DNA of 59,648 nt, the filler included, from Streblomastix strix (taxonomy: Eukaryota), in assembly GCA_008636045.1 (NCBI GenBank). It is 3 parts of 3 records of this genome, joined end to end, with 100 filler letters (N's around TTAATTAATTAA, not from the genome) between each part and the next. Parts side by side here need not be neighbours in the genome. Positions count along the whole stretch, not along the records: positions 1 to 19,825 come from SNRW01000482.1; 2 more parts are not named here. One strand, 5' to 3'. This document shows positions 1,721-38,750 of this stretch, piece by piece. The notes below the pieces were generated by a model. That model saw only the letters and a program-made list of their open reading frames with translations, did not search any database and had not been told where the DNA came from. How positions within the stretch are numbered: the first letter of the stretch is position 1; the number at the start of each line of letters is the position of its first letter. A program made the position numbers and the translations under genes.

Positions 1721-2189
1721 CAAATTTATTAGTTTTTAAGTTGTTTAAATTACTAAAATTTTTTAAAATATGAAGTGGAGCTTTAATATTAAACATACTT
1801 TATGTGAGTTTATTGTCACAATAGAATTGTTTCGTCTTGTGCAGAAAGCGATTACTTTTGTTAATATTACTTCTGCGTCTTTCTTCATCATTTCATCTAT
1901 TGTTAATCTTTCAATATCTAACAAACCCTATAATAATTTTTGGGAGTAAAAATCTCTCTTAACTATATTAAATCTTTATCATTTGAATAGTAAGTTGACT
2001 CCATCTTCAGAGAATCCTCTCATCTTCATACATCTCATTAGTAAGTCTCTCCCAACATCTGCGACAGGTCCAGAAGGAAGGAGCCCACATTACCTAGAAA
2101 AAGGTTTTGATCCTCGTCTTTCATTCTCTGTTCCATCTCCAGAATCCTCTATTTTAATCCAAGGAAAAGGAATTTAATGGATTAATTCT

Positions 2190-2420
2190 TTAGTTTGTGT
2201 TCCAAGATTTGTTCGGCCAAATCGGTGCTATTATTATTCCCTATGCTTTGTCTTATTTCATTTTCTGTAATACTCTATTTAATACTGGTATTGGTGCATG
2301 GATATATAGTTTGACTTCGCTCCATTTATAATTAAACGCGTTATGGAAACGTGTCCCCAGATCGTTGGGATCTATCATTATATAGATATTAATTAGTTTT
2401 TATGTATCATCTATATTATT
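2190..2420 (-). pseudogene. DIRS N6-adenine methyltransferase-like domain
   Basis: NAFNYKW...LYIHAPIP(degenerate N/HPP motif)...VLQKMKQDKAQGIIIAPIWP. Confidence 0.75.
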
Positions 2421-3865
2421 CATTACTTCTATGTGTAATTTCCGATCTGCGTAGTCTGGGCAATGAATCTATTATGGAATTCCTTTTCCTTTGGAAGTTG
2501 ATTATTATTTTCTGTAAATATGGTATCTTTATTAGGTAGAATACTTGTTTTATCCTTTCTTACAGGTATTCTCGCGCTTTCCAATTATTAGTATCATAAA
2601 TTGCAGTAGAATTTTCTGAATGTATCAAGATTGCCTTATCTTTAATCTTATATATGATTCTGTTAAAATGGACAAAAATATATTGAAAAGCACTTATTTA
2701 GTACGCTTTACTCGGTTATTCTATTTTATGTCTCGTTCGAACACTCATATTATATTAATTCCGATAGGTTATCGTACATCGTTGTTGGTCCCCTGCACTA
2801 TTATGATGCATTGGTTGTCAGTATACATGTGAATGCTTTTTTTTTACTAACTATTCCGGTTGATAATATCATATTATCTTTATCTATTATTTCAATTTTC
2901 GAAATAACTTTTTTAATAATTAAAATATATTCATACAATAATTTTATTTTTAACGCATTTATCTTTTCTTTATCCAAGACTTCTAGGAATAAAGAAGCTT
3001 CTCTGTTTTTGGGTCTTATGATATTAAGTCTACCTATTTCTACTGTTAGATATCTTATCGTTACATTTCTATTCACATATATTAGAATACATTAGTTCCT
3101 CTGCACCTTTATCATTTTTGCTTCCTTTCTTCTTGTTTCATAATATTCTTTTTTCTAAAGTTCCATGTCGATCTCAATAATTTTTTTAATTATTTTGGTT
3201 CAATTTCACATTTCTCAATAGATATTGTCCATCCAAACTGTTTCAAAGTTCTCTTTGTTTTTTTATGTTTATTTTTTCAGTATTTATTTGTCTTGATAAA
3301 TAAATCGAATATAGTTGTAATTGTTCAAAATCTATATTTATAAGTGTTTTCTGATATATTTCAGAATCGATTTTATCGAAACTGCGTAGAAGTTTGGGCA
3401 GTGTTTAGTCCTGAATTGCTTAACTTTATATGGGAAGTTATTATTGTTGAAGTTGAATGCTTGATAATATGTTTAGTTAGGAGAAACTGTGGTGTGGTGA
3501 ATGCTGAATTTAAGTAGAGAGTGGTTGTACAATCCATTTGATTAGCTCTAGAATATTGATCAATGATGTTTCAATGGCTATCCTAAAATCTTTCAGCTTT
3601 GCATTTATTGACAAAGAAGTTCATATATGAGATCGTTCATCGTATTGGAATACTATTTCATTAATTAAAGAAGGAAATATAAGTTGGCAATAAATGATTA
3701 TGAAAAATTATTCATTTTTAAACAATTATTTCTAATAAAATTCATGTAATAGATTTTTGAATACGAATTTATTTAACTTTATTATATTCGTTAAGCAAAT
3801 ATAATACATAATAAAAATAAATGACTTAAAAGTATATAGAAGGTTGTTCCATGTTGATAAACTTT

Positions 3866-6419
3866 TCATTCTTCAAATGAATCAAATTCGCTATCTTCAT
3901 TCGAACAAGATTCATTTTCTTAATTCGACTCAAATTCATTTTCTTCATCCGAATCGAATTCATTCTATTTTTCTTAAGATTGCTCTTTCTTCTCTGAAAT
4001 CGATATTTAATCCAATTTCTTTATTATTTCCATCTCTTCAATATCTTTCTTGCAATGTGGGCATTTCAATCCACGATCTTTCCACATATAAGAACATCCA
4101 AGATGGAAATTGTGACCGCATTTCATCAGAACAAGTTTATTATCTTCCCCATTTTTGTTTTTGTGGCACAACGCACATGAATGAGCTAATGGAATAATAA
4201 CATTCTTTTCAATTCCATCTTCTTTAATTGTATGCTCCTAAGAATCAAATATTTGTTTCGTGTGTATGATCAACCGATTAAATTCTGCCATTCCAGCTTC
4301 TTATTCATCATATGTTGTATACTAATCTCCTGCTTTTCTCCAGGGTAATCGAGTTACTTATCCCCCAGTCTTCTGGAAATCAATACAATATATGCAGTTA
4401 TTGAACCCTGGTTTAATAGGCTTTATTGATGTGTAACATTACGGGCATTACGCTTAACTCAATTAGAGATCGAAATCTCCAAAATGTGCGTTGAATATAA
4501 CCATGTGACCATGAGCTGGACATCCTTAATTTTCACATAAGCCTAATTTAAAATATGATAAAAAAAAATAATAAATAATAAAATTTTGTTAATCAATCGA
4601 ATAACTAAACTATTTTCTATATTATTGTTCAAATACCTTCAATGCACAATCCATGCGAGGCAACTCTCCACTAAGGACCAGATTTTGACCATTGTCTCTT
4701 CACGATCGCATCCGTCTTCCCAACATCAACAAAACTCATTGGCATTCCACCTCCGCGAAGACGAAGCACCAAATGAAGCGTTGCCTCTTTAAAAATGCCG
4801 TAATCAAACAAAGTTTTCCCACTCTCAAGATCTTTACCAGAAAAAATCAGCCGCTGCTGGTCAGGTTCAGTTCCTTCTTTTTACTGGATCTTCTTCTTCA
4901 CATTATCAATGGTCTCATTGTTCATTACTTCGAGGGCGATTGTTTTCCCTATTAATGTCTTTACAAATATTTGCATAGAAACACCAAATTATATCAGCAA
5001 AACTGAACCTTTCTCTGGAAACCCACAATCTTGAAGTGTTAAACTGTCATTCAAAGGTTTATATGAATCAGATAAAATGCTTATTGCTTTTGGAAGGTCT
5101 TTTGCTGCTTCCATAACTTTTGCTTTCATTTCCTTTACGGTCATCTTCCTTCTGACATCTACATCAAATGTATATGATGAGAGAGTATTAACTTTTAATT
5201 TGAAGGGGAAATCTTCATTCTTGTCAAAGATACTCAAGATCATACCATTGGAGACATTTTTCTGGCAAATTTTAACATTTTCAATCTATTCAATGCATTC
5301 TCCATAATGTGAAGTTGTTTCCCATCCATAAATTTCCAGATCATTTTATTGCCCTTAGAATCTTGCTTCATCTAAAATGATCTGTTTCAATTGCTTCACC
5401 GGAATTTGAGTATATATCTATTTCAAATCATATGTTTTTCCTTAGAAAACAATGTTTATATCGATAGAAGCATATTCCAGGGTAACAATTTCATCTCCCA
5501 CAATCCAATAATCTGAAATAGTCTTTTCATTCTGAAGTTCTTATTCTTCGCCATTTTCATCTTTCAACTTGAGAATCTGGCAAGAAGGATGAACGGTATC
5601 AAAACAATATATCTTCCATTTCAATGAGAGAATGGTATAGTCATCATCTATATAAACTTTCCTCTTATATTACTGAGTTTGTACGTAAATAGACATCGCA
5701 ACTTTATCAATGACCAGATTATTCAAATCATCACCATCAAATTCACTCAGAATCTTATTTGTATCCAATAAGACTCTATCTTTATGCATGAAATAACCAG
5801 ATGGATCAATTTGGGCTCTAAAACAAGCTCTCTCACAGATATCTTCAATTTTCTCATCATTCTAACAGGATATACGAATTAATTATCTGTTTGGCATACG
5901 AATATTCAGATTCGTTGGGCCAGTTTATAACTGAAGCTCGGACCATTCTTTTATTCCTATGTTTCTGACTTACTGATTATTTGAAATAACTTTGAAATTG
6001 AATAGCAATTTCTACTTTTCTACAGATATTTAACTTTTCAACAAGATTTTCTGTTTCAAGTCTAACACAGAATCGTTATTGTTGAATTGAACTTCTATGT
6101 ATTTATCTTAACTTGAGTCCAACCAAACCAATATAGAGCCTTTACTAATGCTTGCTTATACACAACAACTAAGCCCAGTGCTAAAGAATCCAGTTAAAAG
6201 TTCAACATGTTTTTCAGAATTATATCCCATCACTTCTTCTTGATTTGTTGTAAGTTCTATTATATTGCAATACTCAGAAATGATCGAAAGTTTTGCCATC
6301 CCTGCTCCAATATAGGATTAAATTTGCTGAGCTACTCCTAGCAGAGTTGTTTAAGAATCAACTACTTATCTCTGCATTTCTTACCCAGTGTGATCCCCAA
6401 CGAAGACTATACTTAACAT
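3866..6419 (-). CDS. Tandem ubiquitin-like-domain protein with near-canonical ubiquitin unit, Cys-rich domain, RING finger and acidic tail
   Basis: Open in table 6 from ATG 6419; several divergent UBL units, then [17 protein letters not shown]...[44 protein letters not shown] intron 4543-4636; RING CALC...[10 protein letters not shown]...KCPHC; TGA at 3866. An upstream exon cannot be excluded. Confidence 0.85.
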
Positions 6420-6935
6420 ACCAATCTAGAAATAAATATATATCAATACAATTTCTTTAAAATAAAGAATTAATTTTATAAATAAAAAGCGGACAGAGCA
6501 AATAAACTCAGATTTATATAATAAAAGGATAATGGAACGAATCTTGTGAAATTAATATAAAATTTAGATTACATTAGTTGTTAGCAAACAAATAAATAGA
6601 AATATTAAAAATCGAAACTATGATTGATAAGGATAACAAAAAAATTATTCAATTTAGTCTCATACTTTGTTTAACATAATAATTTACTTATTATTATTAT
6701 TAATAAATTAAATTGTATATTATTTCATATATTTTATCAATTATTTATCAGGATAGAAATTTTTTTCAATTTATTCGCTCCGTACGCAAAGGCACCTTAT
6801 ATATTTTCGAACAAAATTAATTTTCTTGTCTAAATTGCGCATAGCTGCATTTTCTATTTGAGTTAAACTAATTTAATACATATTCAATGATCTGAATTCA
6901 CAATTTTATTTTTCGTTTTATATAACAGATTCGAT

Positions 6936-8429: not shown

Positions 8430-9047
8430 TCAATATAAATCAAAATCATTGTATTCCTATTATTGTTCTTCTTGTGGTTGTTCTTGAATGATTTACTATT
8501 GTTCAAGTTAAATTTATTATGGCTCTTCCTTTTCAATTACTTATTTTGACTATTTGTTTCGTTTTGCTTTTAATTTATATTTCTCTATTTGTTTGATAGC
8601 GTCTTAATGCTACTGCTTAATAAATGAATTTTCTGTTCTTAATTTGATTAATTCTTCTAAATCAAGTTGTGAATTATTGTAATTAATTTATGGAGTTTTT
8701 GATATTTTTACAACTCTTTTTCTAATTTATTTCTTTAATGGTTTTTCTCGTACTTCGCTTATGGAATCATCACTTTCATTTTATTCCTCTTACTGTTCCT
8801 AAGATATAAAATCTTCATCATCAATTTATTTTTAAGATGCTTTTTAAACATTTTTCTTTGGAGCAACCCCACCTTTAGCTTATAACAGTAATTTATTCTA
8901 CTATGTTTAAGTTAATTTTTTTAACGTCTTTTTTCCTTCTTCGAACACTTTAATATCTTTATTAATTTGGATGACATATCCGTTATCAAAGTACTCAATA
9001 TTTGATCCATTCTCTATTAAATTCTTCAATGCGTGATGTAAGTCCAT
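8430..9047 (-). CDS. Hypothetical viral protein A (charged; homologue at 32310-33068)
   Basis: MDLHHALKNLIENGSNIEYFDNGYVIQINKDIKVFEEGKK...; probable frameshift near the C-terminus. Confidence 0.6.
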
Positions 9048-9103
9048 TTGAATAATTTTATATTAGAAAAATGATAAAGGGCATAGAAAGAAACTAAATT
9101 CGC

Positions 9104-9792
9104 ATGTCAAAATCTAAAAAATAAATATCTGAGATTAAACATAAAGAATTAACGGATGAAGATAAAATTAGATTGCAATTGATCGATGAAGCTATCGATA
9201 GGATTAAATCAATGCCAGCAGTCGATGAGACCATCAAACCTAAAGAAAATGAAACATAAACTGAAAATGAAATTATTACATCAAAGCCAGAATCATTAAT
9301 CCTAATAGAATAAAAAATTACTAAATATAAGAGTAAATATAATAAAGATAAAAATAAACAAGTAGATAGAACAACTGCTTAAATAGAACCAGAAGAAGTA
9401 GTTAAAAATACTTATCTTTTACATCCTAATCCAATGGTATGAAATTCATCATAGACAAATTATGGGCGACAATCACTACAAGAAAAAGAGGAGATGATTT
9501 CATATTCTCATCAGATAATTTCATTAAGCTTTGGTCATTAATCACGTAAGAAAATGAAGAAGATATAGAGATAGTATTAGAAAAACCATTGATGAGATCC
9601 CATTCATGCATAAGTAAATCATATAAAAAGAAGGATTTGATTCGTATGATGGAAATATTAATTAAAAATGTATCTGTAAAAGTATTGGATAATGTGCTCT
9701 ACAATTCAATTGAGAAACTGTATCGAGTAAATTGTGACTTTGTTCGTTTATCTGATGCACCTGAGATGGAGATTACCGATAATGACTTTTGA
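9104..9792 (+). pseudogene. Hypothetical viral protein B, one frameshift (homologue at 33156-33843)
   Basis: ...YLLHPN / MKFIIDKLWATITTRKRGDDFIFSSDNFIKLWSLITQENEEDIEIVLEK... aligns by eye to the copy-2 ORF. Confidence 0.7.
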
Positions 9793-9848
9793 TAATTATT
9801 TTAAATGTCTATTTTTTTACTGTTTATTTATTTTTACTTATTACATAA

Positions 9849-10286
9849 ATGCGTTCACAATCCGAAATCGTTAGAGGAAAATTGTTCATGAAACCTTAAA
9901 ATGTTGCAAAAGAAATATGCGTAGAACCAATATATTAATATAATGATGATTTCTATTAACGAACAGTAAATTAATATAATAAACCATACTATAAATTATT
10001 AAAGCGTTATGGAAATAATCAATGGATTCCATAAACAATTTACATTATGATCGAAAAAAGAAATAATGAACATATTGAAAAAACAATTAAACAGTATACA
10101 TAATAGATGAAAGAACTTTAGGATAGTACATCCAATTATCCAATACGTAACTTTACTGATGCAGAAGCAACTAAATTTTATGAAATGAAACATGCCATTA
10201 AATAAATATAAGAACAAACAAAATACAATAAATATGGTTAATGTGGAGTTAAAATTGAAGTCAATTGTATATTATACTACGTTTGA
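9849..10286 (+). CDS. Hypothetical viral protein (~145 aa)
   Basis: Open ATG-TGA frame in table 6: MRSQSEIVRGKLFMKPQNVAKEIC... Confidence 0.5.
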
Positions 10287-10310
10287 TGATCGATTATTTT
10301 TGCAATAAAA

Positions 10311-11084
10311 ATGGATAAATAATTAAGTGATTTAGATATTATTGATGAAGAAGAATAATCTATGTAATAAGAACAGGCAATTAAATTAATATAATTGTAG
10401 GAATAGTAATAAAAATACATAAATGATAGGAATAATTTATTTTAAATCATTGATTCAGAGATCATTAAGTACTTTAATTATTTGAGATAATTCTTTAAAA
10501 AAATCAAAGTTGATTTGACTAATTTTGTAACATTAAGTACTGATTAATTAATAACAGGAATCAAAACATTTTTATAACCAATCATTGCTAGTAAAATTGT
10601 TAAATAAGGTGGATCAAGTAACTAAATTCTATTAGCTAATGATGATACAATCGATAAAGATCAATTAGCCTATGAACCAATTGAGAATGCACGTTATTTT
10701 GCAATTGCATATGGAATGTATGAATAGCGAGTATGGAGATCATTAACAACATAAAATAGTAGAGTGTTTATTTCACTTCAAATAACTCGCTCAGATCCTA
10801 ATACAGTGTGGTAGTCAGGATATACTTTATTATCAATCGTTGATAGTACCATAAAACCAAAATTCAGTGGAACACCACATAACATACCATTAAATGCAGT
10901 TTTGTTTGCGTAAACAGTTATTGGTTATCCAATATGTTGGAATGGTGCTATTCCTATTGATTGTTACATTAATACTAATGGAAACGTTATAATAAATACA
11001 ATGTGTTAGCTAAGTTTGCCTGATTATTTTTGTGTATAAGTATGTGATTCATATGCAATTCATAATTAGTCGGCTAGTCAGTGA
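10311..11084 (+). CDS. Putative fibre/spike protein 1
   Basis: N-terminal coiled coil, tail-fibre-like motif FVTLSTDQLITGIKTF...KIVKQGGSSNQILLANDDT, beta-rich C-terminal head; open to TGA. Confidence 0.6.
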
Positions 11085-11273: not shown

Positions 11274-13217
11274 TCAAACAGCATTAATCGCACTACCAGC
11301 AAGCTCACCAATTACATCGATATTTAACACTTATGGATTAGGATTATTATCAAATGTAATTCGCATAAATGCATCGCATAGATAATGCATCATTGGAGTG
11401 ATGGATGCTTTAGTTGGATCAAGATAACTTCTCATAGCAATAAATTGGTTTAAATCATTTTAGTTCTATTCTTTATTTGAATCAGTATTATCTAATATTA
11501 CTTTAGTCAAATTACCATGTAAAATAACTTATATATTTGTTCTAGCACATAATTTTGAAGAATTATAGCCACGCATAAATGAATCAACAGTAGCAAATTT
11601 CCATGCAAGCATATATTTGTTAGGATATAGTGTTTTAGATGCTTTTGTCCCTACAAATAGTGTAGACGTATGAAATATATTCACATTGTCTTTCCCATAA
11701 AAGCCACCAGTTTTATCAGTGCAATAGAAATTTTCAAATGTAAGTGAATGATATAGATCTGATGGAGCACTAACAACATCTTAATCAACGATATAATCAA
11801 ACATTAGTCCATTAGCGGTTTGTGTCAGTGCTTCATATGGTGCAGGAATAACGTGTCGTTAATCACAAACTAAATCAAAATCATTAAGTAATATAGGATA
11901 AAACCAAGTTGGATACAATGACATGCCAAACGTCATGAATAGTGATTTAATATTAGAGAATGACATAATACTTTACATAGCTCCACTTGATTCAAAACCA
12001 CTAAATGGGAAATTTGATGATTAAAATCTAAATACTTAGGTAGGAAAATTAACTATTTTTTACTCTCTAATCATATTAATTATTGCATCTTCATTTTCAA
12101 CATTAAAGCTTATATTCTATATTTCTAATTTTTCAAATCGTGCATTATTAATTTAACTGATACTATTCTATGGTAATCTATCACATAATGCAGTATTTTA
12201 CATGTTGACTATTCGTACATTAAATTTCTTATATGCAAATACTGCTTAAGCAGTTGGTTCAGCTAATAGATATACTATGTCTAGTTTCTCAGGTGGAATC
12301 ATGTGATAAGCTTAGTGTTTATTTTTTACAGCATCAGTTTTATTGAGCCAAACTACTTTCAAATCTTATAGATAATCTTATATCCAGGGCTATAGATGAA
12401 GTTAAACATAATTCCGAGTAAGAACAGGAAATGAGTTAAAGATTGGATTTAATTAATTAAGATCAAGAACACCACTAAATGTGATATCAAATGGAATTTT
12501 AAAATACAAAGGAGTTGTAACTGATTATGTATCAATATCAGATAGATGAATTTCAATAAATATTCCACAATGACGTTTACCATTAATGATGCTTCCTAAT
12601 TGAGAAACACTAACGCTATTACTAGTGCATAAATCACTCAATGAATTAGAACTAATAGCAGCTTATTCTCTGGCATATATTGAAGTGCCCCATAATGCAG
12701 TGGCATCACGCATCAATTGAAATTGGTGAAATGGCTACCACGCAGTTGAGAATCCAAGCCAAAAACGTAATTGCTCAGATTTCTCTTCTCTTTCTGCTGT
12801 TTTACCATAATACTTTTATTCGGCTTATGTCATACTTTTTGCAACAAGAGCTTATGAATCTTCTAGTCCATTGAAGTTAATTCTCTTATTATATTCACCA
12901 TCTTCAAGATTTGTTTCATTTAATTATATCACTAATGTATTTCCAGGAATGGTAATTGTCCAATTTACTTAACATGTTTGTACCATTGTACAGGTGGCTA
13001 ATCCCCTTGCTCCTAGTGGTGCTCTAGTATATTTAACTCCACCAGATGTTAGTTCAGTTACTAGTTAATCGGTGAATTATTGCTCGGAAATTGAAAATGA
13101 TTCAGCATGAATCGTTAATGTTTTTAATATTTCACCTAATTACATATAACCAGCAACGTAATCAGAGTGTTACATTTTTTGCAAATGGGCTAAATAATCA
13201 CTAGATTTGAATGACAT
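11274..13217 (-). pseudogene. Putative major capsid protein (~650 aa), at least one frameshift
   Basis: MSFKSSDYLAHL...to ...IDVIGELAGSAINAV-TGA; beta-rich, well conserved in copy 2 (37005+), size and context fit a double jelly-roll MCP; the fold is inferred, not demonstrated. Confidence 0.6.
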
Positions 13218-13283: not shown

Positions 13284-13493
13284 ATGGTATTCTTCTCTGG
13301 AATTGCGAATTTTGGTTCGAAAATTTTAAGCGGTGTTAAGAAAGCAGCGCAATGGGTAGCACCAGCATTACATAAAGTTTTATCAACAATATCTGGCCCA
13401 GTTGGAATGATTCATCCTGCTATTGGTGGCGCATTAGGTGCAGGAGCTAATCTTGCTGGTGCTGTTGATCGACTAGCAAATAAGCGTAATTGA
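13284..13493 (+). CDS. Small amphipathic-helix protein, adenovirus pVI-like membrane-lytic candidate
   Basis: MVFFSGIANFGSKILSGVKKAAQWVAPALHKVLSTISGPVG...; intact, divergent from the MCP gene, homologue at 36963(-). Confidence 0.75.
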   Translation: MVFFSGIANFGSKILSGVKKAAQWVAPALHKVLSTISGPVGMIHPAIGGALGAGANLAGAVDRLANKRN

Positions 13494-13513
13494 TGTAATT
13501 TATTTTTGAAGAA

Positions 13514-15831
13514 ATGAACAGTTCATTATTGTAACAATAAATCCGAACAGTTAGATAGTTAATCACTAACGATATTGCTTACTATATTTAATATTCGAAA
13601 CGTGGTGGATCAAGTGGTGGAATGATGTCGAATGATGAATACCAATTATTCAAAAATAATAACAATGCATTAGTCTACGCTGCTAACAATTAAATCATTG
13701 ATGGAATTGCATCAGATTACGCATTAAAAATAGATACTCTGGGATTACTAATGATAAAGAATTTGAAAGTGACTAATTTTGATTTTGTCGCATAGATTAA
13801 TTAGTTGATTAATTAAGTGAATTTATTATAACAATCAATTGGAACAACAGAATAGGATATCACTGATATAAAAAATGATATTTATACAATTAATTAAGAA
13901 TTGTCACGATAAGCACGTTTCAGAGGATATTATTTATTGAATACAGATATATAAAATTTACCTAATTCCGCTAATGGATATTTTTCATTTAGTGCGGAAA
14001 GTGGAACAGTATGGATGTATGATGCAGATTGTTATAATAGTGGAGATATTGTACCTGATTAAATTACACCAGCAAGTGATGCAACTCCTCTATCTGATGG
14101 TACAGCAACTGCAGGAATTAGCACCGAATATTCACGTGGGGATCACATTCATCCCTAAAATGTAACAATTACTATTCCACCTAGTGATTCTGCTAGTGGA
14201 TCAGTTGGTTCAACTAATTATTATGCCAGAAACGATCATTCTCATCCTATCAATATAACAACTACCATATCACCTCAAGATAGTGTTAGTGGATCAATTG
14301 GAATAACTAATTATTATGCTAGAAACGATCATTCCTATCCAATTAATGCAGAAACTAATGCTTCAAATATTCCTATCGTTAATGGTGTTGGTGCTAATGG
14401 AACATCAGCTTTTACGCTAGACATGATCATGTTCATCCATAGCAATTGACATATGATGGTAATGTTACGGAAACTAAGTTCATTAAGACAGGTGAAACTG
14501 CTTCAGAAGTGCTATGTGCCAATGGTGACACAACTACAATAGATAGTAAGTTATTTCGTACATATACAAGTAGTGGATGGATTAGATTATGTGTATTTCC
14601 TGCTTGTGATGGTATTGGTAATCCATTCATTGAATTTAAAATATATACATCTTATAATGCTGTTCAAATCATTAGACTATAGCCTTATTATACCGTCAAT
14701 GGAATCAATACTGTATATAGAGTATTTATGGCTCCAACTAGAGTTACTTCATAATATGTGATTGAAAATGGAGCACGTTCACCATTTCATAATCATTCTG
14801 GCTCTGGCACATCAGCTGTATATTAAGCAAATATTCAATTAGAATCGGTTGGTTCTATTACGATAGTTGTATCTGATAAATGTACTTATTTTACCAATAG
14901 AATCACGGAGATATTAACGTAAGATGTGGTTACAGGAGTATCAAGTGGAACAGTAATACCTATCAATTATAACTACGGATATGGTGGGTTTATGTAAAAT
15001 ACTTTATAAGTTAATCCAACAGATCGAACAAAATCCAGCTATAATAATGGTATTAGAATCGGAAATTTTAGTAATGAATCAACAACATATTTAGCCTGTA
15101 GTAATACAACAATTAATACTGTACAAGCAGGTCAATGGGAAATAAGTAAAATAAGTGATAATGCACTTACTATAAACCCATCATCTCTACGAAAAGCTGA
15201 TCATAGTGTTGGTTTAAGTATTAACGGTGATAGTTCAATAATAAAATTTAATGGTAATGAGTTAGTGAATGTCGGAACTGATTAAATAATTAATGGAAGA
15301 AAGACATTCAAAAATGACTAGTTTGAGGTATAACTAACAGATTCAAATTATCCATTATTAGTATTTAATAATAATAACCATTATTTGGAGTAAATGGTAA
15401 ATGGTAATGAATTGATATTGACTATTGATACTAGTTTACAAGTTGGTACTCCATTATATATTAATTGGCGGGGGAATACTTTAAGTACATAATACCCTGA
15501 TTCTAAATTAGTCACTAATTATGTTTTAAATGCAGGTTTATCTACTTCGTTTGCTGGTGTTACTTGTGGTGCAGTTTAAATTAATCCAAATTGAAACAAT
15601 TTTAATGAAGGATTAAGAATATCACGTTCTACCGTTAGTAATTATAGTGGAATTTATCTAGGGTGTAATCCAAGTTAAACTAGTGGAGCATTAATAGATT
15701 AGTGGAGTATAATAAATGCACCTACTGACGAATTAAGAATTGGAGTTGGAGATTAACTTCTTAATGATAATTTAGGTTTAATAATATCCGCTGATGGAAA
15801 TACATTATCATTCAATAAACGAACATTATGA
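13514..15831 (+). pseudogene. Long fibre protein 2 with phage-tail-fibre-like HxH repeats
   Basis: Coiled-coil N-terminus; repeats YSRGDHIHP, YARNDHSHP, YARNDHSYP, RHDHVHP; KFIKTGETASEVLCANGD; TDQIINGRKTF; ends GLIISADGNTLSFNKRTL; frameshift near 14412 and internal TGA near 15592. Confidence 0.7.
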
Positions 15832-16912: not shown

Positions 16913-17927
16913 ATGACACTGCAAGAATTATAAGATATAACATTTACGAACTAGGATCCATTGAATGAATATAAAACTACGCCAATAACGAAGAATTCGT
17001 TGTTTCTTATTAATGAAAATCATTATATTGTAGGAGCTGTTGGAAGTGGTAAAACAACATTAATGTGTAAGCTAATTGTGATAAATAAAAAAAATCATTA
17101 ATCCATACATATTATACTTCTCGAATTATGGTGCAGATGAAACTATGGCATTAAATCTTAATAGTAAGAACATTTAACTAACTAATGTAACTTATGGAGA
17201 AGCAATGATATTTCTACCTGAATTTGATGAGATAAAATACCGTTCTAAAGAGATGTATACATGGTACAAAATGAATGAACAAAAATAATCTTATACAAGT
17301 GATTTCATTAAGCGAATGGAAGAATAGATATTATAGATTAATGAGATAAAAAAGAATGAAAAACCTAATGATTATCTTAATTGAATTGCTGAACTATTCA
17401 AATAAAAACTAATCGAGACCATTAATACATATAGTTAACCAACCAAGATATTGAGATTTGATATTCCAGCACTAATTCAAAACGTCAGTTATTAAAATAA
17501 ATTCAAAATAGTTGATGAGGATTAAGTTGACATAAAAATAATTAAAATACCTATTTTAAAAAAAGCTTAATTACTCCATACACTAATGCTCTTCGATAAT
17601 AAAGGATCTAATGCAGACATTTAACGATTCAATTCATAACTCTTTAAACAATAACACTTCTCGTTAGTGATTCTCGTCATTCAAAAATTCTATTTTCTTT
17701 ATTGTTTACCGTCCATTTTATTTGTTTATGATAGCAGGGATATTAACCTATGTAATTTGCTTAGGCGATAATATTGGTGAAACAGATCTAAGATAAGTGT
17801 ACGATGAAAATACCATATAAAATTTAGATTTTTATGAGTTCCAATTATTATACAACACATTAAAGAAATATGAGTTCATCATACTCAATAAATGGATGGG
17901 AAAATTAGAGATTCTCAAAAATAAATG
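16913..17927 (+). pseudogene. A32/FtsK-HerA-type genome packaging ATPase
   Basis: Walker A YIVGAVGSGKTTLM (~17024-17065), Walker B-like TLMLFDN, SRH motif; frameshifts. Confidence 0.85.
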
Positions 17928-19926: not shown

Positions 19927-20348
19927 AGTTTTCCGTCAAGCACAGCCTTGCATACACGTGTCATCAACGTCCGAAAATTGTTGGTAGCTTAATTTTTCAC
20001 ACCTGTTTGCATTGTTAAATTAGAGCTTTTTTTTTCCTCTAATAATGAAAATTTAAGATAATATAAAGTCATAAAATGTATTTAGAATTAATTATATTCA
20101 CAAAAATTCATAAGGATGTGTTATAAATTTCTGTTGGAGCAGAAAACTATAAAAAGTTTATAAATGCATTTTTCATGTGCTACGGAAAGTTTTTTACTAT
20201 AGGCTTTTTGTATAATTACAAAATAAGTTTTAATTGGTATTTGAAAATGAATTTATGTGTAAATCTAATTTCGTCGAACTAGTCAGGTCGCTATGGTACT
20301 TATGAAAAATAAAACCAACTTATTTTGTTGTTTCACATAAATAATTAG
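19927..20348 (+). repeat. Left terminal inverted repeat (~420 bp)
   Basis: AGTTTTCCGTCAAGCACAGCCTTGCATACACGTGTC... is the reverse complement of 39314-39737 with scattered mismatches. Confidence 0.92.
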
Positions 20349-20969
20349 TTATTTTATTATGATTAAAATGAAAAGTCCAACTATTCCAGAAGTAAAACCA
20401 TAATTCGAAAAGGAAATTGAAGTGTTTGCAGCTGTAGTTTCAGTTGCATCTTAAAATAATCCATTTAAATAACCATTTCAGGTGTAGGTTATTAGATGTG
20501 AAACGCCAACATTGTCAGCAAGGCGCGGAAGTTCAATACTAATTATTTTATTTCTTATTCAATAAGCTATTTCATACTTAATTCCTATTTCAACCATAAA
20601 TTTACTTAAAATTGACCTAAATCATCATTTTCTTGAATGTATTACTGATTACGCCGTGATTCAAATTATTAGTATTGTTTTACAGAACAATTTTAGCTTC
20701 GAGTTTCGAGCCTCAAGATTATTCCATTTTTACCAGATTTTTATTTTTTTTATTATTTTCTAATTTTTGTTTTATCGTATTTATACCTCTAGCCACATTT
20801 TTAATTTACATTTCTACTAATTTTCACTAATTTTATAATTTCGTTTTTCATTTTTAATAATTATTTTCGATACCATTTGCAGTATTATTTTATCGATTAG
20901 TTTTCACATTATTTATCATAAAATTACTTGATTTTATTACTTATCATCATCTTCATTATAATTCTCTTC

Positions 20970-22250
20970 TAAATGAGTATATTAAGATCTTTAAACTACG
21001 GATGTCATATTATAACAAACAAAAGAAAGGTTCAAGAGGAAGATAGGCAAATAAATTGATATGTTAAGAAGGATGTTTGGGAACACTTTTACAAGATACA
21101 ATAATCATAACAAAGCAAGAAAGACATAAAACAGGAGAAGCTTCAGTTTCAATCCAAGAGGAAGGATTAATCGCGAGTTTAAGTCAAATAGCTTCAAATC
21201 CAATATTTAATTGAATCGTACTGATGAAAAAAATAAAAAGCATTTTCTTCTAGGCGTGTTACTCGAAGTTCGGCTAGAGGTGACAGAGAACAGGACCTAT
21301 TCAAGTAGATTACTTCAAAGAAATAGTTCACTGATGATGCAACATAGTAAGTTATTGATGGAAGGCAAAGCACCTGGAGCCTGCACCGACGGGTAATCGG
21401 AGAATTAGAAGAATTTTAAACTTATTCAGGAAAATAATGGGAAGATTGAAATTCTATAAAAGTTCCAATAACTGTAAAATCAAACTTCATTATATAATTG
21501 ATCTCAGTTCATGCTAAAAATGCAAATTCCAATGCTTATTGAACCGCAGTTGGGATGATCTTCAGATTATAAGATTTTAAAGAAGATAGATTAAATGGAT
21601 TTATAATATAGTAGATTATGATAAAACCTCTTGCAATTGCTAGGAAGAAAAGAAAGGAAGAAACAATATATAAGTTAGATATCCTTCAAAAGTATATATA
21701 AGAAAAAGCTGATGGTTTGCAAAACATGAGTGAATAAGAATACTTATGACGCACAATATCTGCAATTCTTGCGTTCTCTACTCTACGATTGGCTGATATT
21801 CATCGTGCTTCAGTAATCATGAAGGATGATAATGTTTGTTAATTAAATGCATCAAAATGGAAAGGTGATAATTATGAACAAAATGTAACATTTAGTCCTC
21901 AATATTATTCCAAAGTTTACCCTACAGCATGGTTTTGCAATTGGATCGTTTTAAAAAGAGAGGAAAATTTTGGTAAATCACTTTGGTGGCGACCAAGTAA
22001 TAAGAAAATTTTTTCATATAAATATCCACCTAATGCAGTGTATATAGTCAAGTTACCATCTGGAGTAAGGAAAGAGAATTTAATAACTTCCATCCGCATA
22101 TCACCAATCACTAAGAACATTGATTTAGGAGCCACAATATATATATTATAAAAGAGTACTTGATATAAAGATGGAACTAGTACCGTCGCCGTTCTTTATA
22201 GCATGAATTTAAATGTTACAATAACATAGTGATTGACATTTTTTAAATGA
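20970..22250 (+). pseudogene. Second DIRS-like element remnant (tyrosine recombinase)
   Basis: ILAFSTLRLADIHRA...KWKG...VYPTAWF...LWWRP...ITSIRISPITK...TVAVLYSMNL. Confidence 0.75.
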
Positions 22251-22877
22251 TGATCAATTATCACAATAAACAGATAGTTAAGATTAAGTGAATGTTAGAT
22301 AATCTCATAACAATATGGAGACGTTATCGTAGCTATCCACGTATCTGGAATCCTACCTTTTTCCCTTTTAATGAACTTAATCCTCTTTCAATATCTATCT
22401 ATTTACAAAGAGTCTAGTTTACCTCATCCTTATGAGTGTTTTCATTTGAAGTACTAATATTTGATTTATTCATTCTATTTATTTTATATCTGACTAAGGG
22501 CGCATCACACTTTTATTTTGTCATATTTTATTTTCTATTATTTTTTTCTCTTACATCAGCTTATTTAACTCATCAATGGTGGCTCAACAAATTTTAAATT
22601 TCATATATTAACTTTTTATATTGAATATTATCCTTTAACTAGTCTATGCTTAAACGCTTTGACTTGAAAAATTATTTATAGCAATTTTTAGTTTTTACGT
22701 TTAAAGCAATTTTTAAATTGATTTTATTTATTTAATATTATGTTAATCATTTCGTGAATATTTTGGGTTTCGTTGACTGGACCCATTGCCATTGGTTACT
22801 TGCTCTCACAATAAAAAGGTAGTATTCCAGATACGTTGATAGCTACGAATCTTTTATTACAAATAATATTAAAATTA

Positions 22878-23010
22878 AATAATAAAAACTCTCTTAGGAA
22901 AGACAAATTAAATAATAAAAACTCTCTTAGGAAAGACAAATAAAATTATAAAAACTCTCTTAGGAAATACAAATTAAACAATAAAAACTCTCTTAGGAAA
23001 GACAAATTAA
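22878..23010 (+). repeat. Tandem repeat, 4 x 33 bp
   Basis: Unit AATAATAAAAACTCTCTTAGGAAAGACAAATTA, head-to-tail, no spacers. Confidence 0.9.
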
Positions 23011-23213
23011 GTAATATATGCCTCTTATAATATAATTTAAATGAAAATTTGATTTAAATTAACATGAAGAGAAGAGAAAATAAAAGAAAAAGTAAAAATG
23101 GATAAAAATGATAAAGAAAAATTTAATAATTAGTGAAAAAACTTAAAAATTAATAAAATAATAATAATAGAAAATGAAAGATTATATGGATCAAGCTCTT
23201 TTTACTCTAGTTT

Positions 23214-25451: not shown

Positions 25452-26115
25452 ATGGCTGATGCTTTGAAAAACAACGTTAGAATTATGAATCAATTATATA
25501 TTTCCGCAGATATTTAATTAATGAATCAATAATTGTTTGGGACACAAAGTTATATAGAGAGGTTAACTCCCAATCAAAAAAAAATAGAAATGGGTTTAGA
25601 TTAAGTAGATAAATTAGATTGAACGACATTAATAGAAAACTTTGCGACCAATCATTTAGTTAAATCGTAGCAAAGTAATTTTTATCTAATAATGACAATA
25701 CTAAAAATTAAATATTCCACTTAGATAATGATCTCGAGAATGATTCAGTTGATAAATTGTTATAGGTAGACTAATTTGATTATATTAGATACAACACAAA
25801 CAAGTATTATCAAAAAAAAACTAAAGACGAAATGAAAGATAAAAAATTAACTGATTTATTTATGTGTATGAATAGATTATTAGACAATTATGTTGTAGAT
25901 GAAGCATAAAATGTGTGGTTTAATAATCTTGATAGTAATAAGTATATGTTGCTAAAAATTAATGATAATGGGAAAGAAAACTTCTATATTAACGTTTCAT
26001 ATCAAGATATGATTGAATTTAAAATATATATTGAAATTTTAATGATAGAATTAAAGAATTAAAAATAATATTTTTAATAAATATTAATCCAATCCAAAAA
26101 ATTTATATTCTGATA
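25452..26115 (+). pseudogene. Decayed intronless hypothetical ORF
   Basis: MADALKNNVRIMNQLY... with internal TGA and frameshift. Confidence 0.35.
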
Positions 26116-26330
26116 TAAGGTGAAACATACCATGGGTTAAAATTAGATAGAATTTTTATTGATGAAAAGTCAGTAGTATTTATGCCGCCAACATAATTGG
26201 TACTTAAATTGATGTAAATTAGCTCACTGAACAACCATCCATATTTTTGAAAAATAAAACTGAGGTCTAAAATGACTTTTCTCTAACTCTATAATACATT
26301 TATTTATTTTAATTTTTTTTTAAAGAATAA

Positions 26331-27173
26331 AAATAATCAACTGCAAGGAATTTTGACCAAATTAAGTTCGAAGTAACTTCTAACGGTATCACGATCGTCG
26401 TACGAACCACTGACGAGTGGGTCAATGCGAGGATGATGGTGATATTGTTAAAGAATAGTGTTGAAAATAAATTAATGGACTTTTTTAAATCAAACAGCTG
26501 GATTGAGTTCTAAAACTACTTCAAATAGACGATATAAAATAGGTCCCCCGAAAATTCGTGGGACGAATTTTACGAGTAAAGTAACACATATCCAAACGAC
26601 TTAGTGAAATGGTACGCACATCCAAAATTAGTTAATTTTATCGCTATCTGGGCTAATCCTAAGTACGCTTTTATAATCAGCGAGATCATGGACTAAATTA
26701 ATAATAGTTCACTAGCTTAACATATTACTTATAAAAAATAAACAAAAAGAATGATAGAAAGATTAAATAATGAAATGATGAAATAATTAGCGATAGCTGA
26801 TTACTTAGCAAATGATCTTGAATAATTTACTCCATGAACAATATATGGTTTATAAAAATAAGCGTACATATTAGTCTTAAATTTATGCGATGTTGAAGCA
26901 AATCCATTCACTTTTGAGATGAGACATTTATGTAAAAATAAAATGAGAGAAAGAAAATATAATTAATTAAGGGATCAATCAATAAGAATCTACGATAATT
27001 TGCCTGCTACAGTCACGTCATATCACGAGATATAATTAGCATTAATAGTTAACTATGAATAAATTAGATTCAGTTATAATAAATTTACATTATCAACCGA
27101 TAAATAAATATAAGAACTACTAAACGAAGTACCTTAAGTAATTGCACAACAAATTGAATTGATGCACGAATGA
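26331..27173 (+). pseudogene. KilA-N/APSES DNA-binding domain protein
   Basis: NGITIVVRTTDEWVNARMM...DFFKSNSWIEF...WYAHPKLVNFIAIWANPKYAFIISEIMD; no clear ATG, one internal TGA. Confidence 0.85.
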
Positions 27174-27194: not shown

Positions 27195-28540
27195 ATGGCC
27201 ACATAAGGTATGAATGTATTGTCCACATCAACCAAAAAGGAGTTCGTTTAGTTGGAAACTACTTTTGCATAATTATATAACTAATTTTAAGCAAATGGTA
27301 TTTATAATGTACCAATTAATTTAATATATTATTTAAACAAAGATTATATTGAAATAACCCCAAATATTAGATCTACCGAATATTAGTAAGTTATGGAATA
27401 AGAATAATTACTGAATAATTTATTTAAATTAACAGCTATAGATTAACTTCCACAAATCAGAATTATGATGAATACGCATATTAATAACCATTATGTTAAT
27501 CATGAAGGGCGCTAGAGATATAAATTTAATCTATAAATTATTGTTCTAAAGAATAATTAATTTAATTAATTTACAGATAACTATAAATAATTTTTCAGAT
27601 AGGATGATAAAACCAACGGTTGGCCAATATGTTATAATTCAGTGGTAAACGAGTACACACAAAAATAATTAAATTTATATTCCCTGAACTAAAATATAGG
27701 TGAGAATTTATGTTTTTGTGCTAATATTTATATTAATTTACGCTTAGATTTAATTCTTTAACATTATTGGATATATAACCAATAATTATAGATTGCTTAA
27801 CGGGCGGTCAGGATAAATAAATTATATTTCCCTATGACAAATAATTATATAACTGATGTTGAACCTCATAAATACGACGAAAATAAATCCATAACGGTTA
27901 AATATAATTTCGGAATCTAATTTGAAATTAACAGAGATTCTATTTTACAAGCTGTAACATAGCCAATTAATGTATAAGAACCAAATTTATATTATTTTAT
28001 AAATTAAATTTATACATTTCCAGTTAGAATTATATTTTCCCTACTTGCTTTTTCTGCTAATGAGTGGGACTATATTTATATTAGTTAATAACGCCCTAAT
28101 GATTACGGTTAATTTGTACTGAAAGTTTTAGAATAGTTATATTGGGATAAATCAGAACTAACAAATATTTTAGAAATAGTAGAATTTAGTAACAATTTAC
28201 ATATCTAATTGACCAATAGTAATTAGCTATACGAGAACAACGATCGAGTAAAGTAAATGTAATTGGAAACGTGGTATTATAAAGTTAAATATTAAGCTCT
28301 GATTATCATTAAACATTACTTATATTTAGCCCTTTCATCGGTAATTTTATTGAATATTCAAAAATGTTAATTATAACTGTAAGTAATTAATAAAGAGGTA
28401 TAACGATGGAAGTTTTGGATAATAATTCATTTAATAATGTCGTATTCAAATAAAATTTAATTGGTGCTCCAGTAATATGGGGATAAAATAAGCTATCTCA
28501 CACAAATATTATTGAGTAGAATAAAGAAGTTATATTTAAA
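27195..28540 (+). pseudogene. Decayed ~450-aa ORF, possible minor capsid/penton
   Basis: MATQGMNVLSTS...; beta-rich aromatic composition, frameshifts; identity inferred from context only. Confidence 0.3.
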
Positions 28541-29034
28541 TTATATGATAATTTTGGTAGATAAGTACTAGTCTAATAAATGGATTAGTATAATAATTTG
28601 CTATTAGAAATATAGTATCAGAGAAACTGGCAGCAATAAAGTTACTACTAATGAAATTTGCGTAAAAATTTAACCTCCTAAAATTAGGCCCTGACTTTAT
28701 CGCTATAATTAGCCCAACAAATAATTTCCCAGAATTTTGAAAAATAAAACATTTGTGCAATCAACTTTTTCTCTGATCCAGAAAGTACTAACTTTATCAG
28801 CTGCATACTCGCTACCGAATTTGTCAGCGGCATAAATGTTAGTGTTTGAATTAATCATTCATTTATTTTTATTCTCAAATTCTTGAATTAGCTTTATAGT
28901 TGCCTATAGGCTATCTTCTTTAGCTATTTCCATTATTTCTTTTAATTATTCCATTCGTATTCTCCTATTAAATTATCGAAGTAAGAATAGCAATTTAATC
29001 TCAAGGTCTGATTTAGTAGTTTAACTTACGGGTA

Positions 29035-31700: not shown

Positions 31701-32277
31701 TCAAATGAAGTCAACAAATCTATTGAACTTGGTATATTAAATTTAATGTCTTTTACCATTGATATCAGTCGTATAAACAAAGTTATAACCACATTTTGTT
31801 TCATTGATGCGAAACTATTTAAATTATATACCGTTAAAGAAAAAAATGTCGTTATGAAATTAAAAATTTTCGAATTAATAATTGCCATAATTGTTAACAA
31901 CTATACTTTCGTCATCAATTTCGTCAACATATATGTAATTGGCGTTAGTTTGATATAATTATTATCTTTTAATAATTCTCACTAGATATTACCTAGTGGA
32001 GATTAGTAAGAGAATTATTGTTTCTTTATTAGTCATAATGGTTTGTCTATGTTTTATTTTCAGAGTCGTTTGTAGGTATGAATTATAGAGTTACCAATGG
32101 ATGTAACTTGTATGTACAGCTATTTAATGTAACTTACATATAGCCATCAGAGATTTGATTAATACTTGGCTCAAACCTCTCAGATATAAGTTTAACATGC
32201 CATGGTTGTGTGGTTGTAATTTCGAGCTCCGGTTCAGCAACAAGTTGGACAAATTAATATTAATTATTTTCAGTCAT
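31701..32277 (-). pseudogene. HNH endonuclease (HNH_3-like)
   Basis: DGYMQVTLNSCTYKLHPLVTLQFIPTNDSENKTQTNHYDQQRNNNSLTNLHQVISSEN. Confidence 0.7.
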
Positions 32278-35059: not shown

Positions 35060-36092
35060 AAATATTTTGATAATTAATTGTTACGTTAATTTCAACGTTT
35101 AAATATTTCGTAAGTATTTAATGATTTGTTTATTAAGATAAATTCAAATTTATATAAACTGTTATAAATATTGATTAATTCTTATTCATTAAATTCTTAT
35201 ACAATATTTTTTACATTGATTTATTTCAAATCTTATTCTGATATGTTAGCCTCAACTACAATTACGTGGCATTATATAAGAGCTGGTTCAAACAAATAAC
35301 ATGGCCTTTACGTTCAAAAGAATATGGTATTTTTACTAAGCCATCTATCGGAGACCAAATGAGTAATTGATCTAGCCAGCTCACTAGTGTATCGTTAAAT
35401 ATCGGTATTAGACCCAATATCATCAAATATCATTAATGTAGAAAGTAATTATGGGTTCATAAGTAAGGTTATTTTTTAAAATTCTTATTCTCCGTCTTGT
35501 TCTGCAATTTTTTATTTCTTAGAATATTAAACCTATATAGTTATCGGGGGAACAATGAATCGCATAATAGATGTGGGCTAACTTAATTCATTAATTTTTT
35601 TTATAGTCTCCATTTGGAAAATATCCCTTAATCTATGTTAATATTATTTATCTGTTTCTTATTCGCCATGTTAATCTTTTTATTTATTATTATCAACTAT
35701 TGATTCTTTCATTCTAGTTATATAATCTGAGTCATATTTCATATCTCGTTCTTTTAATTTCCAATAGGTATATATTTCTTTTACTTTATATTTAACTTAA
35801 TCGAATTATGGTAGAAAAGATTGAGCTTCTACTTAAGTAATATTAATTAATTTTATACCTTTATTATTTAATTTAATCGCCATTGTCTCATCTGGTCCAT
35901 AGCTAGAGAAATATAATATGTATGGATTAATGTACCGTTAATATAATACAATTAATTATGCCATTAATGTTGTTTTACCACTTCCTACAGATCCAACTAT
36001 ATAGTAATTTGCGTTAATAAGAAAGATAGAATGTGATGCTAGTAGCCCAATTTTATATTCTTCTAGTTATGATTAATCGTCGAATTGTACAT
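35060..36092 (-). pseudogene. A32-like packaging ATPase, copy 2
   Basis: YYIVGSVGSGKTTLM...INPYILYFSSYGPDETMA...TLMIFDDIG. Confidence 0.85.
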
Positions 36093-36128
36093 TATTTATT
36101 TATTGAGTATTCATTTAAGTAAATATAA

Positions 36129-36829: not shown

Positions 36830-36963
36830 AGATAATTAGACCCAAGCGGCCCAGATGCAGCTCCTATAACTTTATGTAGCACCAGTGCGACCCTTTTAGC
36901 TGCAGATGTTACTCCATGTAAAATTTTTGAACCGAAATTCTTGAGATCTGACAAAAACCCCAT
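36830..36963 (-). pseudogene. pVI-like amphipathic protein, copy 2 (3'-truncated)
   Basis: MGFLSDLKNFGSKILHGVTSAAKRVALVLHKVIGAASGPLG. Confidence 0.75.
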
Positions 36964-37004
36964 TTGTTAGTGAATAACAGTTTGAAATTTATTTCAATCA
37001 ATAA

Positions 37005-38750
37005 ATGTCGTTCAATACATCAGATTATTTATCCCATTTATCGAAGACCTCACATTCCGATTATGTTTCATCATACTCTACACTAAATGAAGTGCTAAGA
37101 ACTTTGACAATTGAACCTTAATCATTCGCAATATCCAAATAGAAATTTTTTGACTAACTAAGAAATATTTTAATTTCTGGCGGTACTAGATAGACTAGTG
37201 CTCCATTAGAGGCTTGAGGTAGTGTTAATTATTGTAGTGTCTAGACTTATTAAGTTAATTGGACAATAACTATACACACTAATAGTTTAGGTATGTAACT
37301 AAATAAAATAATTACAACATAAGGTATGTTATGCTCTATAGAATTTTGTCGAGCGAAAACTAACTTCAATGGAACTGCAACAGCTACAACAGCTCTAGCA
37401 GATGGCATTAAATAGCCAACATAAAAATACAATGTTTGTGAAATGCTGAAATTTTGGCTAGGGTTCTCAACTACCTGTGGTTCTTTCTAACAAATAGCTA
37501 TTTGTCATGATAATACAAAACTTTAGGAAACTTCAATTTACGTTAGAGAATAGGCGATCATTTGTTCTAATTCGCAATCTGATCATACCATTAATAAATT
37601 AGTTTCAATTTCATCTCTTGAAAGTATAGTTTAGGTTATGCGTCACTGCGGTGTATTTATTTATATTCCTTTGGTCGACATTGCTGCCGCTTCTGCAAAA
37701 ACTGCATTTTATTATCGCAATCCCAAAGATATTACATTTTCTGGATTAATAGATTCGAATTAACTTAACCCTATTTTTAATGAATTTCCTGCTCTTAATA
37801 AAAATTATGCCTCGTTATATTTGTAACTTTGGATGACTGATTTCCTATAAGATTTAAAAATAATTTGATTAAATAAATCATTTCACTCATTTGATACTTT
37901 TTTTAGCTTACACTATGATACCAGCGGAGAAGTAAGATATAATTGCACTTTTGAATGATAGCGCAACACCTGCCAATGTTTAATTTTCAGTTTGATTGAT
38001 TAATTGTAAAGATTTAGATAATGCCGCTTCAGATCCTAAAAATAATATATAATAAATTGATTCAGCATATCTTGATAATCAATCTATACATAATTTATGT
38101 TTTACAATGGAAAATGAAATGTCAATCATTGATATGATTAGAACATAAAAGGTAATAAATTTCCCAATGTAAGTACTTAAGACACAATCAACTAAATATC
38201 CTATGTCCGGATCTCAAATTTAAACAATAATATCATTCTCTAACATAAAAAGTGTATTTATGACATTCGCTATGTAATAATATCCCACATGGTTCTTCCC
38301 ACTTTTACTGAAGAAAGATAACTTAATCAATGACTAAAAACAGTCGACACCCAATATTTATGAAGCACTTACCACTGATGTTTATGGATCAATGTTTTAA
38401 TGTTTTGTTGACTAAAATATTGTATCTGCACCATCTGATCTTTATCGTTCACTTACTTTCGAGAACATTAATATGAATGATAAGATCAATTCATACGGAA
38501 AAGATGATGATATAAATGTTGAAACATAAGATAACATATTTTATAAGACTACACACTTTAAGGGATCTAAAACAATTAGAACGTACAACTCAAATAAATT
38601 TATGCTTGTATAGAAATTAGCTACTGATGGCTCGATTATGCAAGGCTATAATAGTAATAGAATATGTGCCAGAACAAATATATAAATGGTTCTTCTTTAT
38701 AACTTTATAAACTGGTAGACAAAAGTTCGTCGAAATTTTTTTAAACATTT
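37005..38750 (+). pseudogene. Putative major capsid protein, copy 2
   Basis: MSFNTSDYLSHLSKTSHSDYV...RHCGVFIYIP...LNPIFNEFP; colinear with 11274-13217; stops and frameshifts, 3' end lost. Confidence 0.6.

What the first reader, a model, noticed from the sequence alone, without database searches (positions are those of the whole stretch)
11274..13217. Highly divergent candidate major capsid protein (~650 aa)
Long, beta-rich and well conserved between the two copies (for example SDYLxHL...HSDYV, RHCGxFIxI, LNPIFNxFP), located in the ATPase/fibre block. No motif identifies it by eye, so the MCP call is inference from size and context.
Basis: inference. Interest (0 to 1): 0.7.

Follow-up and report, generated by a model that had tools for sequence, protein, structure and literature searches.

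The report
Divergent capsid gene of protist provirus
This is an unbroken gene, written in the altered genetic code of a termite-gut protist, whose product is predicted to fold as the double jelly-roll shell protein of a Polinton-like virus lodged in the host genome; such viruses are already known in this protist, but this capsid family likely is a second, undescribed lineage.

Summary
11274-13217 (-) is one open frame of 647 codons when TAA/TAG are read as Gln (table 6), so no frameshift needs repair. With distant homologues in the alignment, AlphaFold gives pLDDT 79/pTM 0.85. The top 15 of 48,161 PDB representatives are all double jelly-roll capsid or scaffold proteins (best Z 20.1). Neighbours are a broken protein-primed PolB and a broken A32-type ATPase, so this is a decaying endogenous Polinton-like virus. 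Close relatives are all Streblomastix strix proteins (119 of 120 listed), 12 already labelled 'Major capsid protein' in UniRef. The window is three joined contigs, so the 'second copy' is a separate, broken element. Bellas 2023 already reported S. strix endogenous viruses in this code, and this scan saw TAR=Gln viral genes on other DNA (e1-7142348). What may be new: the family does not resemble the published S. strix capsid representative (not tested by alignment), and it has nine unnamed relatives at 20-28% identity, three on 20-22 kb contigs. Interest 0.35.

The parts
11274..13217 (-). Major capsid protein gene, 647 aa under table 6; predicted double jelly roll (domains about residues 33-372 and 388-636); frame open but drifting at conserved sites
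   Evidence: frame; fold; 27 of 277 conserved columns differ
13284..13493 (+). 69-aa Gly/Ala-rich ORF head-to-head with the capsid gene, amphipathic N-terminal half; candidate membrane-active virion peptide (inferred)
   Evidence: hydrophobic moment 0.5-0.57 over residues 3-36; 52% match in the second element; Atlas clusters of 54 and 75 members, commonest Preaxostyla; no common Pfam
13493..15594 (+). Fibre-like gene with coiled-coil start and internal repeats, split by a frameshift near 14.41 kb; the fibre role is inference, no family hit
   Evidence: searches (internal repeat 14141-14347; no significant family), 90 table 4 (contigs of all 4 runs differ by one base there)
16913..17862 (+). 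A32-type packaging ATPase, broken into three frames with one internal TGA
   Evidence: tblastn of intact homologue P0134: 16913-17092, 17088-17648, 17683-17862; 4 of 31 homologues carry PF04665
17963..19825 (-). [quoted passage not shown]
   Evidence: (PF03175, E 8.8e-8, 31.9 bits against cut-off 25.8)
8430..11084 (.). Left part of the element: several unnamed ORFs, partly shared with the second element; the shared multi-copy stretch begins near 8.43 kb
   Evidence: tblastx to 32.6-34.1 kb; depth step at about 8.4 kb in 3 of 4 runs
37005..38706 (+). Second, broken copy of the capsid gene on a different contig (3 TGA, 1 frameshift, 3' part missing)
35155..36114 (-). ATPase of the second element, one internal TGA
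36841..36984 (-). Broken copy of the small amphipathic ORF, again head-to-head with the capsid gene

Best explanation
This open 647-codon gene, read with TAA/TAG as Gln, encodes a predicted double jelly-roll protein that is likely the major capsid protein of a Polinton-like DNA virus integrated in the genome of an oxymonad, likely Streblomastix strix. Shown: the open frame, the code, the flanking pPolB and A32-type ATPase genes, host-type genes to the left on the same contig, and hundreds of diverged relatives. Predicted: the two tandem beta-sandwich domains. Inferred from known Bamfordvirae biology: trimers of this protein would tile an icosahedral shell, the ATPase would pump in the linear genome copied by pPolB, and the fibre-like protein and the small amphipathic peptide would serve attachment and membrane entry. 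The viral genes use the host code, so host ribosomes would translate them. This copy is likely dead: its polymerase, ATPase and fibre genes are broken and the capsid gene has drifted at conserved sites. The family is likely a lineage separate from the published S. strix/Trichomonas capsid cluster.
For: Fold: pLDDT 79.4, pTM 0.85. The top 15 rows of the search over 48,161 chains are double jelly-roll proteins, Z 20.1 to 8.5, and single beta-sandwich modules align separately to about 33-373 and 392-616. All 20 Foldseek rows shown are capsid proteins. The poorer first model (pLDDT 55.7) also ranked them first. Context: PF03175 above cut-off; ATPase homologues with PF04665, 4 of 31. No other capsid-sized ORF in this element apart from the fibre-like gene and pPolB. 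Code: at the query's TAA/TAG columns nine distant homologues have Gln in 47 of 236 cells (20%) against 4.2% elsewhere. Past selection: differences between the two copies over 546 codons are 193/165/280 at codon positions 1/2/3. Family: 189 hits, 326 with the profile. Decay: 27 of 277 conserved columns differ, rank 77 of 92, best copy 0.4%.
Against: The fold is a prediction. TM-scores to known capsids are only 0.33-0.42 by query length and identities 4-10%. No sequence-level match to any named capsid family. No integrase, protease, penton or terminal repeat was identified, and the contig ends inside pPolB. The best structural neighbours are giant-virus capsids (PBCV-1, faustovirus), not virophage ones. 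Separation from the published S. strix capsid cluster rests on IDs, three short motifs and inspection, not on an alignment; the Atlas first hit of the homologue P0192 is a Parabasalia-dominated cluster, which points to kinship.
Confidence: 0.92

Rival explanations
1. The protein is a capsid protein, but simply a divergent member of the already published Metamonada cluster (MMPC_40), and these loci are among the 820 S. strix hits counted by Bellas et al. 2023.
For: All 820 S. strix hits fall in one loose cluster, 25% identity over 30% length. The Atlas first hit of P0192 is a 583-aa cluster of 522 members, commonest Parabasalia, score 0.96, tied with NCLDV capsid clusters. By eye the N-terminal region of the distant homologues resembles the Histomonas capsid in Table S3. 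61 of 211 profile hits were not listed.
Against: None of the four S. strix capsid IDs seen in the supplement is among the proteins listed. None of 10 family IDs tried occurs in the stored part of the supplement (file cut before the S. strix rows). Three 9-residue motifs of the published 562-aa representative match 0 of 314 fetched proteins at up to 2 mismatches. No Trichomonas or Entamoeba name appears among the named hits.
Confidence: 0.3
2. The gene is a double jelly-roll protein with another role: a minor capsomer or scaffold paralogue (like poxvirus D13), or a gene domesticated by the host.
For: D13/Orfv075 scaffolds score Z 16-17, close to true capsids. The frame is open while three neighbours are broken.
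Against: It is the only double jelly-roll candidate found in the element. The open frame is not surprising: about 5 breaks in about 5 kb of neighbouring genes gives roughly a 1-in-6 chance of none in 1.9 kb (my estimate). The copy deviates at conserved sites more than most relatives, the opposite of domestication.
Confidence: 0.05
3. The stretch is a fragment of a nucleocytovirus (giant virus) genome, or a free virus contig co-assembled with the host.
For: The highest Z values are to PBCV-1, faustovirus and ASFV capsids.
Against: The polymerase is the protein-primed type. No Capsid_N or Capsid_NCLDV match. Host-type genes in the same code (ubiquitin-domain gene 4629-6659) lie on the same contig, and the viral genes are decayed.
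Confidence: 0.03

Closest known systems
Endogenous Metamonada-group (MMPC_40) Maverick-Polinton/PLV capsids of Streblomastix strix, Trichomonas, Histomonas and Entamoeba (Bellas et al. 2023, PMC10120064)
   Same: Same host, integrated, TAA/TAG=Gln, hundreds of copies, double jelly roll recognised only by structure prediction.
   Different: About 650 aa against 562 aa for the published representative; no shared ID or motif found.
Polinton-like viruses and Polintons (Preplasmiviricota)
   Same: Double jelly-roll capsid gene with A32-type ATPase and protein-primed PolB in a compact, integrated element.
   Different: No sequence match to named capsid families; integrase, protease, penton and terminal repeats not identified. 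A 2026 preprint leaves Metamonada elements ungrouped for this reason (10.64898/2026.06.19.733378).
Solved capsids: PBCV-1 (8h2i, 6ncl), faustovirus (5j7o), mavirus (6g45), Sputnik (3j26)
   Same: Fold over both domains, Z 15.6-20.1, 344-389 residues aligned.
   Different: 7-9% identity, rmsd 4-5 A, and about 250-300 query residues outside the shared core.

Membership tests
[quoted passage not shown] | Two tandem jelly-roll domains | tested here: met
   Predicted model, pLDDT 79.4; Z 20.1, rmsd 4.3, 353 aligned; top 15 rows all of this fold
[quoted passage not shown] | Trimeric capsomers forming an icosahedral shell | not testable with these tools
   Three copies exceed the complex tool's 1000-residue limit; needs experiment
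[quoted passage not shown] | Linked A32/FtsK-type packaging ATPase | tested here: met
   linked in both elements; 4 of 31 homologues carry PF04665
Polintons/Polinton-like viruses | Protein-primed PolB | tested here: met
   PF03175 above cut-off; in contig 1 only, none seen in contig 2
Polintons/Polinton-like viruses | Integrase (retroviral-type in Polintons, often tyrosine recombinase in PLVs) | tested here: inconclusive
   None among the ORFs scanned; contig ends inside pPolB
Polintons/Polinton-like viruses | Terminal inverted repeats and target-site duplication | tested here: inconclusive
   Only one end of element 1 is in the window; no repeat at 7.8-9.0 kb
Polintons/Polinton-like viruses | Single jelly-roll penton and maturation protease | tested here: inconclusive
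   No family hit; small ORFs were not folded
Metamonada capsid cluster MMPC_40 (Bellas 2023) | At least 25% identity over 30% length to a cluster member | not tested
   The published sequences were seen only in a paper supplement and were not aligned; indirect checks negative, one search suggests kinship
Metamonada capsid cluster MMPC_40 (Bellas 2023) | In S. strix, viral genes use TAA/TAG=Gln | tested here: met
Nucleocytoviricota | RNA-primed family B polymerase and NCLDV capsid Pfam domains | tested here: not met
   Polymerase matches PF03175, the protein-primed type; no PF16903/PF04451 in the query or in 11 distant homologues

The most novel reading that the evidence does not exclude
This is a second, uncounted lineage of Polinton-like viruses in oxymonads, with 600-700 aa capsids invisible to every profile library. 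Its living relatives are free viruses of about 20-22 kb in the standard code, and one branch invaded Streblomastix, switched to the host's TAA/TAG=Gln code and expanded to hundreds of copies. The unnamed relatives could bridge the still unplaced Metamonada elements to other PLV groups.
Probability: 0.45. Interest if true: 0.55.

Novelty: new member of a known kind. Interest (0 to 1): 0.35.

Why it matters
Metamonad Polinton-like elements are stated to be unplaced because their capsid genes are too divergent, and more related genomes are asked for (10.64898/2026.06.19.733378). A separate capsid family with at least 326 database proteins and nine distant relatives would raise the viral share of the S. 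strix genome and give a profile for finding its free relatives. It would also offer a case of a virus lineage adopting a host's altered code. As a single locus it is an ordinary decayed endogenous virus.

Tried and rejected
Standard code: gives only fragments, longest 83 aa in the region; rejected. Sequence searches for a named family found nothing: PDB by phmmer and by two profiles (only MINDY-1 at E 2.2, chance), Pfam, PHROGs. First fold from S. strix sequences alone was weak (pLDDT 55.7, best Z 5.5). Nine collection scans for DNA around relatives found none: viral contigs 5, metagenome contigs 2, prokaryote genomes 2. So the gene content, habitat and code of the distant relatives are untested. 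No whole genome is held for the window. No RNA holder listed. The left junction was seen only at bin resolution, and run X4 shows no depth step there. No earlier scan finding matched by sequence or place. The idea that the 69-aa ORF is an adenovirus protein VI homologue came from recall and got no support: no PDB or Pfam hit; nearest Atlas cluster with a family is cecropin at 0.78, a lead only. The 430-bp inverted repeats at both ends of contig 2 were considered as terminal repeats of the second element and left unresolved: they are 90-93% alike, cut by the contig ends, and DIRS-like fragments lie between the left arm and the viral genes. No complex prediction was sent. Papers without relevant content: PMC11071308 (0 matches), Yaravirus preprint, PMC12220804, PMC13215967.

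Full report
Observation. Under the standard code the region has no ORF over 83 aa. Under NCBI table 6, 11274-13217 on the minus strand is one frame of 647 codons ending in TGA, with 28 TAA and 5 TAG inside. A TGA-free run this long has a chance of about 8e-7 per start at the contig's TGA frequency. The code is supported without circularity: at the TAA/TAG columns, nine distant homologues have Gln in 47 of 236 cells against 4.2% in other columns. The window is three contigs joined by N spacers. The second copy at 37005-38706 is on another contig, is 49-50% identical, and is broken by 3 TGA codons, one frameshift and loss of the 3' end.

Family. The single-sequence search gave 189 hits among 6,934 candidates. 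Of 120 listed, 119 are named Streblomastix strix and one is the window's own protein; 12 of 120 carry the UniRef name 'Major capsid protein'. The profile search gave 326 hits among 7,998 scored. A full HMMER pass over 1.84 billion representatives gave 211 hits at E up to 1e-3, of which 150 were listed. Nine of the 146 newly listed proteins are under 35% identical to any S. strix member fetched. They are 462-696 aa long and 20-28% identical to the query. They are unnamed or hypothetical, come from Logan, ENA, JGI/IMG and NCBI, and three lie on contigs of 20,640, 20,667 and 21,847 bases. In a tree of 26 proteins the 17 S. strix-type sequences form one side of a branch with support 100/100, on a stem of 1.76 changes per column; long branches make the rest unsure and the tree is unrooted. 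That the nine use the standard code is inference from their full length; their DNA could not be fetched.

Fold. Sequence libraries name nothing. A first model from 92 S. strix sequences was weak (pLDDT 55.7), yet ranked double jelly-roll capsids first in three searches. Adding 13 distant sequences raised it to pLDDT 79.4 and pTM 0.85. Against 48,161 PDB representatives the top 15 rows are double jelly-roll capsid or scaffold proteins: PBCV-1 Z 20.1 (rmsd 4.3, 353 aligned), faustovirus 18.8, ASFV p72 17.7, mavirus 16.9, Sputnik 15.6, PRD1 12.4. The first non-viral row scores 8.1 over 108 residues. Foldseek agrees, with best E 5.9e-11 and 201 matches at E up to 1e-3, though TM-scores are only 0.33-0.42. 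The ranking among capsids does not place the lineage.

Context. To the right lie a 69-aa amphipathic ORF head-to-head with the capsid gene, a fibre-like gene with a frameshift near 14.41 kb, an ATPase in three frames whose homologues carry the Pox_A32 domain in 4 of 31 cases, and a protein-primed PolB (PF03175) that is broken and cut by the contig end. The ATPase, small ORF and capsid genes recur together in the second element. Host-type genes in the same code lie to the left on the same contig. Contigs of four DNA runs from three studies cover the whole stretch with many diverged pieces, and depth steps up near 8.4 kb in 3 of 4 runs, two of which share a sample. Run X1 may be the source sample, and depth is not copy number. 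No integrase, protease, penton or terminal repeat was identified.

How it works. Shown: frame, code, neighbours, copy family. Predicted: two jelly-roll domains. Inferred from established Bamfordvirae biology: trimers form the shell, the ATPase packages the genome, pPolB copies it, and the fibre and peptide serve entry. Membrane-active accessory genes, including cupiennin-like and protein VI-like ones, are described in adintoviruses and MELD viruses (PMC8502044, passages); for this peptide that is analogy only. The two copies differ at 193, 165 and 280 of 546 codons at positions 1, 2 and 3, a sign of past purifying selection. This copy differs at 27 of 277 conserved columns, rank 77 of 92. The five best-supported differences listed inside the gene all fall on second codon positions at such columns (that list is selected). 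With three broken neighbours, it is likely a dead provirus.

What is known. Bellas et al. 2023 (PMC10120064; I saw passages, the methods section on the capsid database, supplement searches and one part of supplement 2) report 820 capsid hits in S. strix, all in cluster MMPC_40, using TAA/TAG=Gln, found by PSI-BLAST from Trichomonas. The stored supplement is cut before the S. strix rows of Table S5 and the figshare data were not seen, so whether this family was counted is open. Against inclusion: none of four published S. strix IDs is among my listed hits, none of 10 family IDs is in the stored text, and three motifs of the 562-aa representative match 0 of 314 proteins. For kinship: the Atlas first hit of P0192 is a Parabasalia-dominated cluster at 0.96, tied with NCLDV capsid clusters, with a low recognition value. 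A 2026 preprint (passages and one section) leaves Metamonada elements ungrouped. Searches for a description of this family found none: Streblomastix plus capsid gave 3 papers, of which only Bellas is relevant by the listing and passages. The library lacks most subscription journals.

Verdict. The capsid call is confirmed as far as prediction allows (0.92). The kind of element is known in this host, and the label is already on some relatives in UniRef. The likely separate lineage with unnamed relatives is the part worth following. New member of a known kind; interest 0.35.

Noticed in passing
window 26166-26837 (+): KilA-N gene (PF04383, E 1.4e-12) among virus-like ORFs left of the second element. 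The egovirus preprint (10.1101/2024.03.23.586382, passages) says polinton KilA appears restricted to Parabasalia; if this gene belongs to the element it extends that to an oxymonad.
   Followed up: partly
window 13284-13493 (+) and 36841-36984 (-): Conserved 69-aa amphipathic ORF head-to-head with the capsid gene; Atlas clusters of 54 and 75 members, commonest Preaxostyla, no family. It contains no TAA/TAG codon.
   Followed up: partly
window 19927-20357 and 39305-39737: About 430-bp inverted repeat, 90-93% alike, at both ends of contig 2 and cut by the contig ends; either a repeat that broke the assembly or an element terminus.
   Followed up: partly
window 25460-26113 and 31701-32277; protein P0124: ORF pieces resembling by eye the C-terminal part of P0124, a 1057-aa database protein that joins this capsid family to an HNH domain (PF13392); probably a gene model joining two neighbours, which would link HNH genes to these elements.
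   Followed up: no
window 27195-28694 (+): 499-aa ORF under table 6 with no Pfam or PHROG match, between the KilA-N gene and the second element.
   Followed up: no
window 2124-2624 (-) and 21750-22206 (+): Fragments that look by eye like the methyltransferase-like and tyrosine-recombinase genes of DIRS retrotransposons (recalled; no Pfam hit).
   Followed up: no
window 3866-6659 (-): Host-type gene with several ubiquitin-like domains (PF00240, E 7e-41), followed by a frame with a RING-like Cys/His pattern (by eye).
   Followed up: no
window 57654-59228 (-): Broken frames resembling a dynein heavy chain motor domain (by eye, recalled).
   Followed up: no
window 22839-23036: Five tandem copies of a 33-bp unit.
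   Followed up: no
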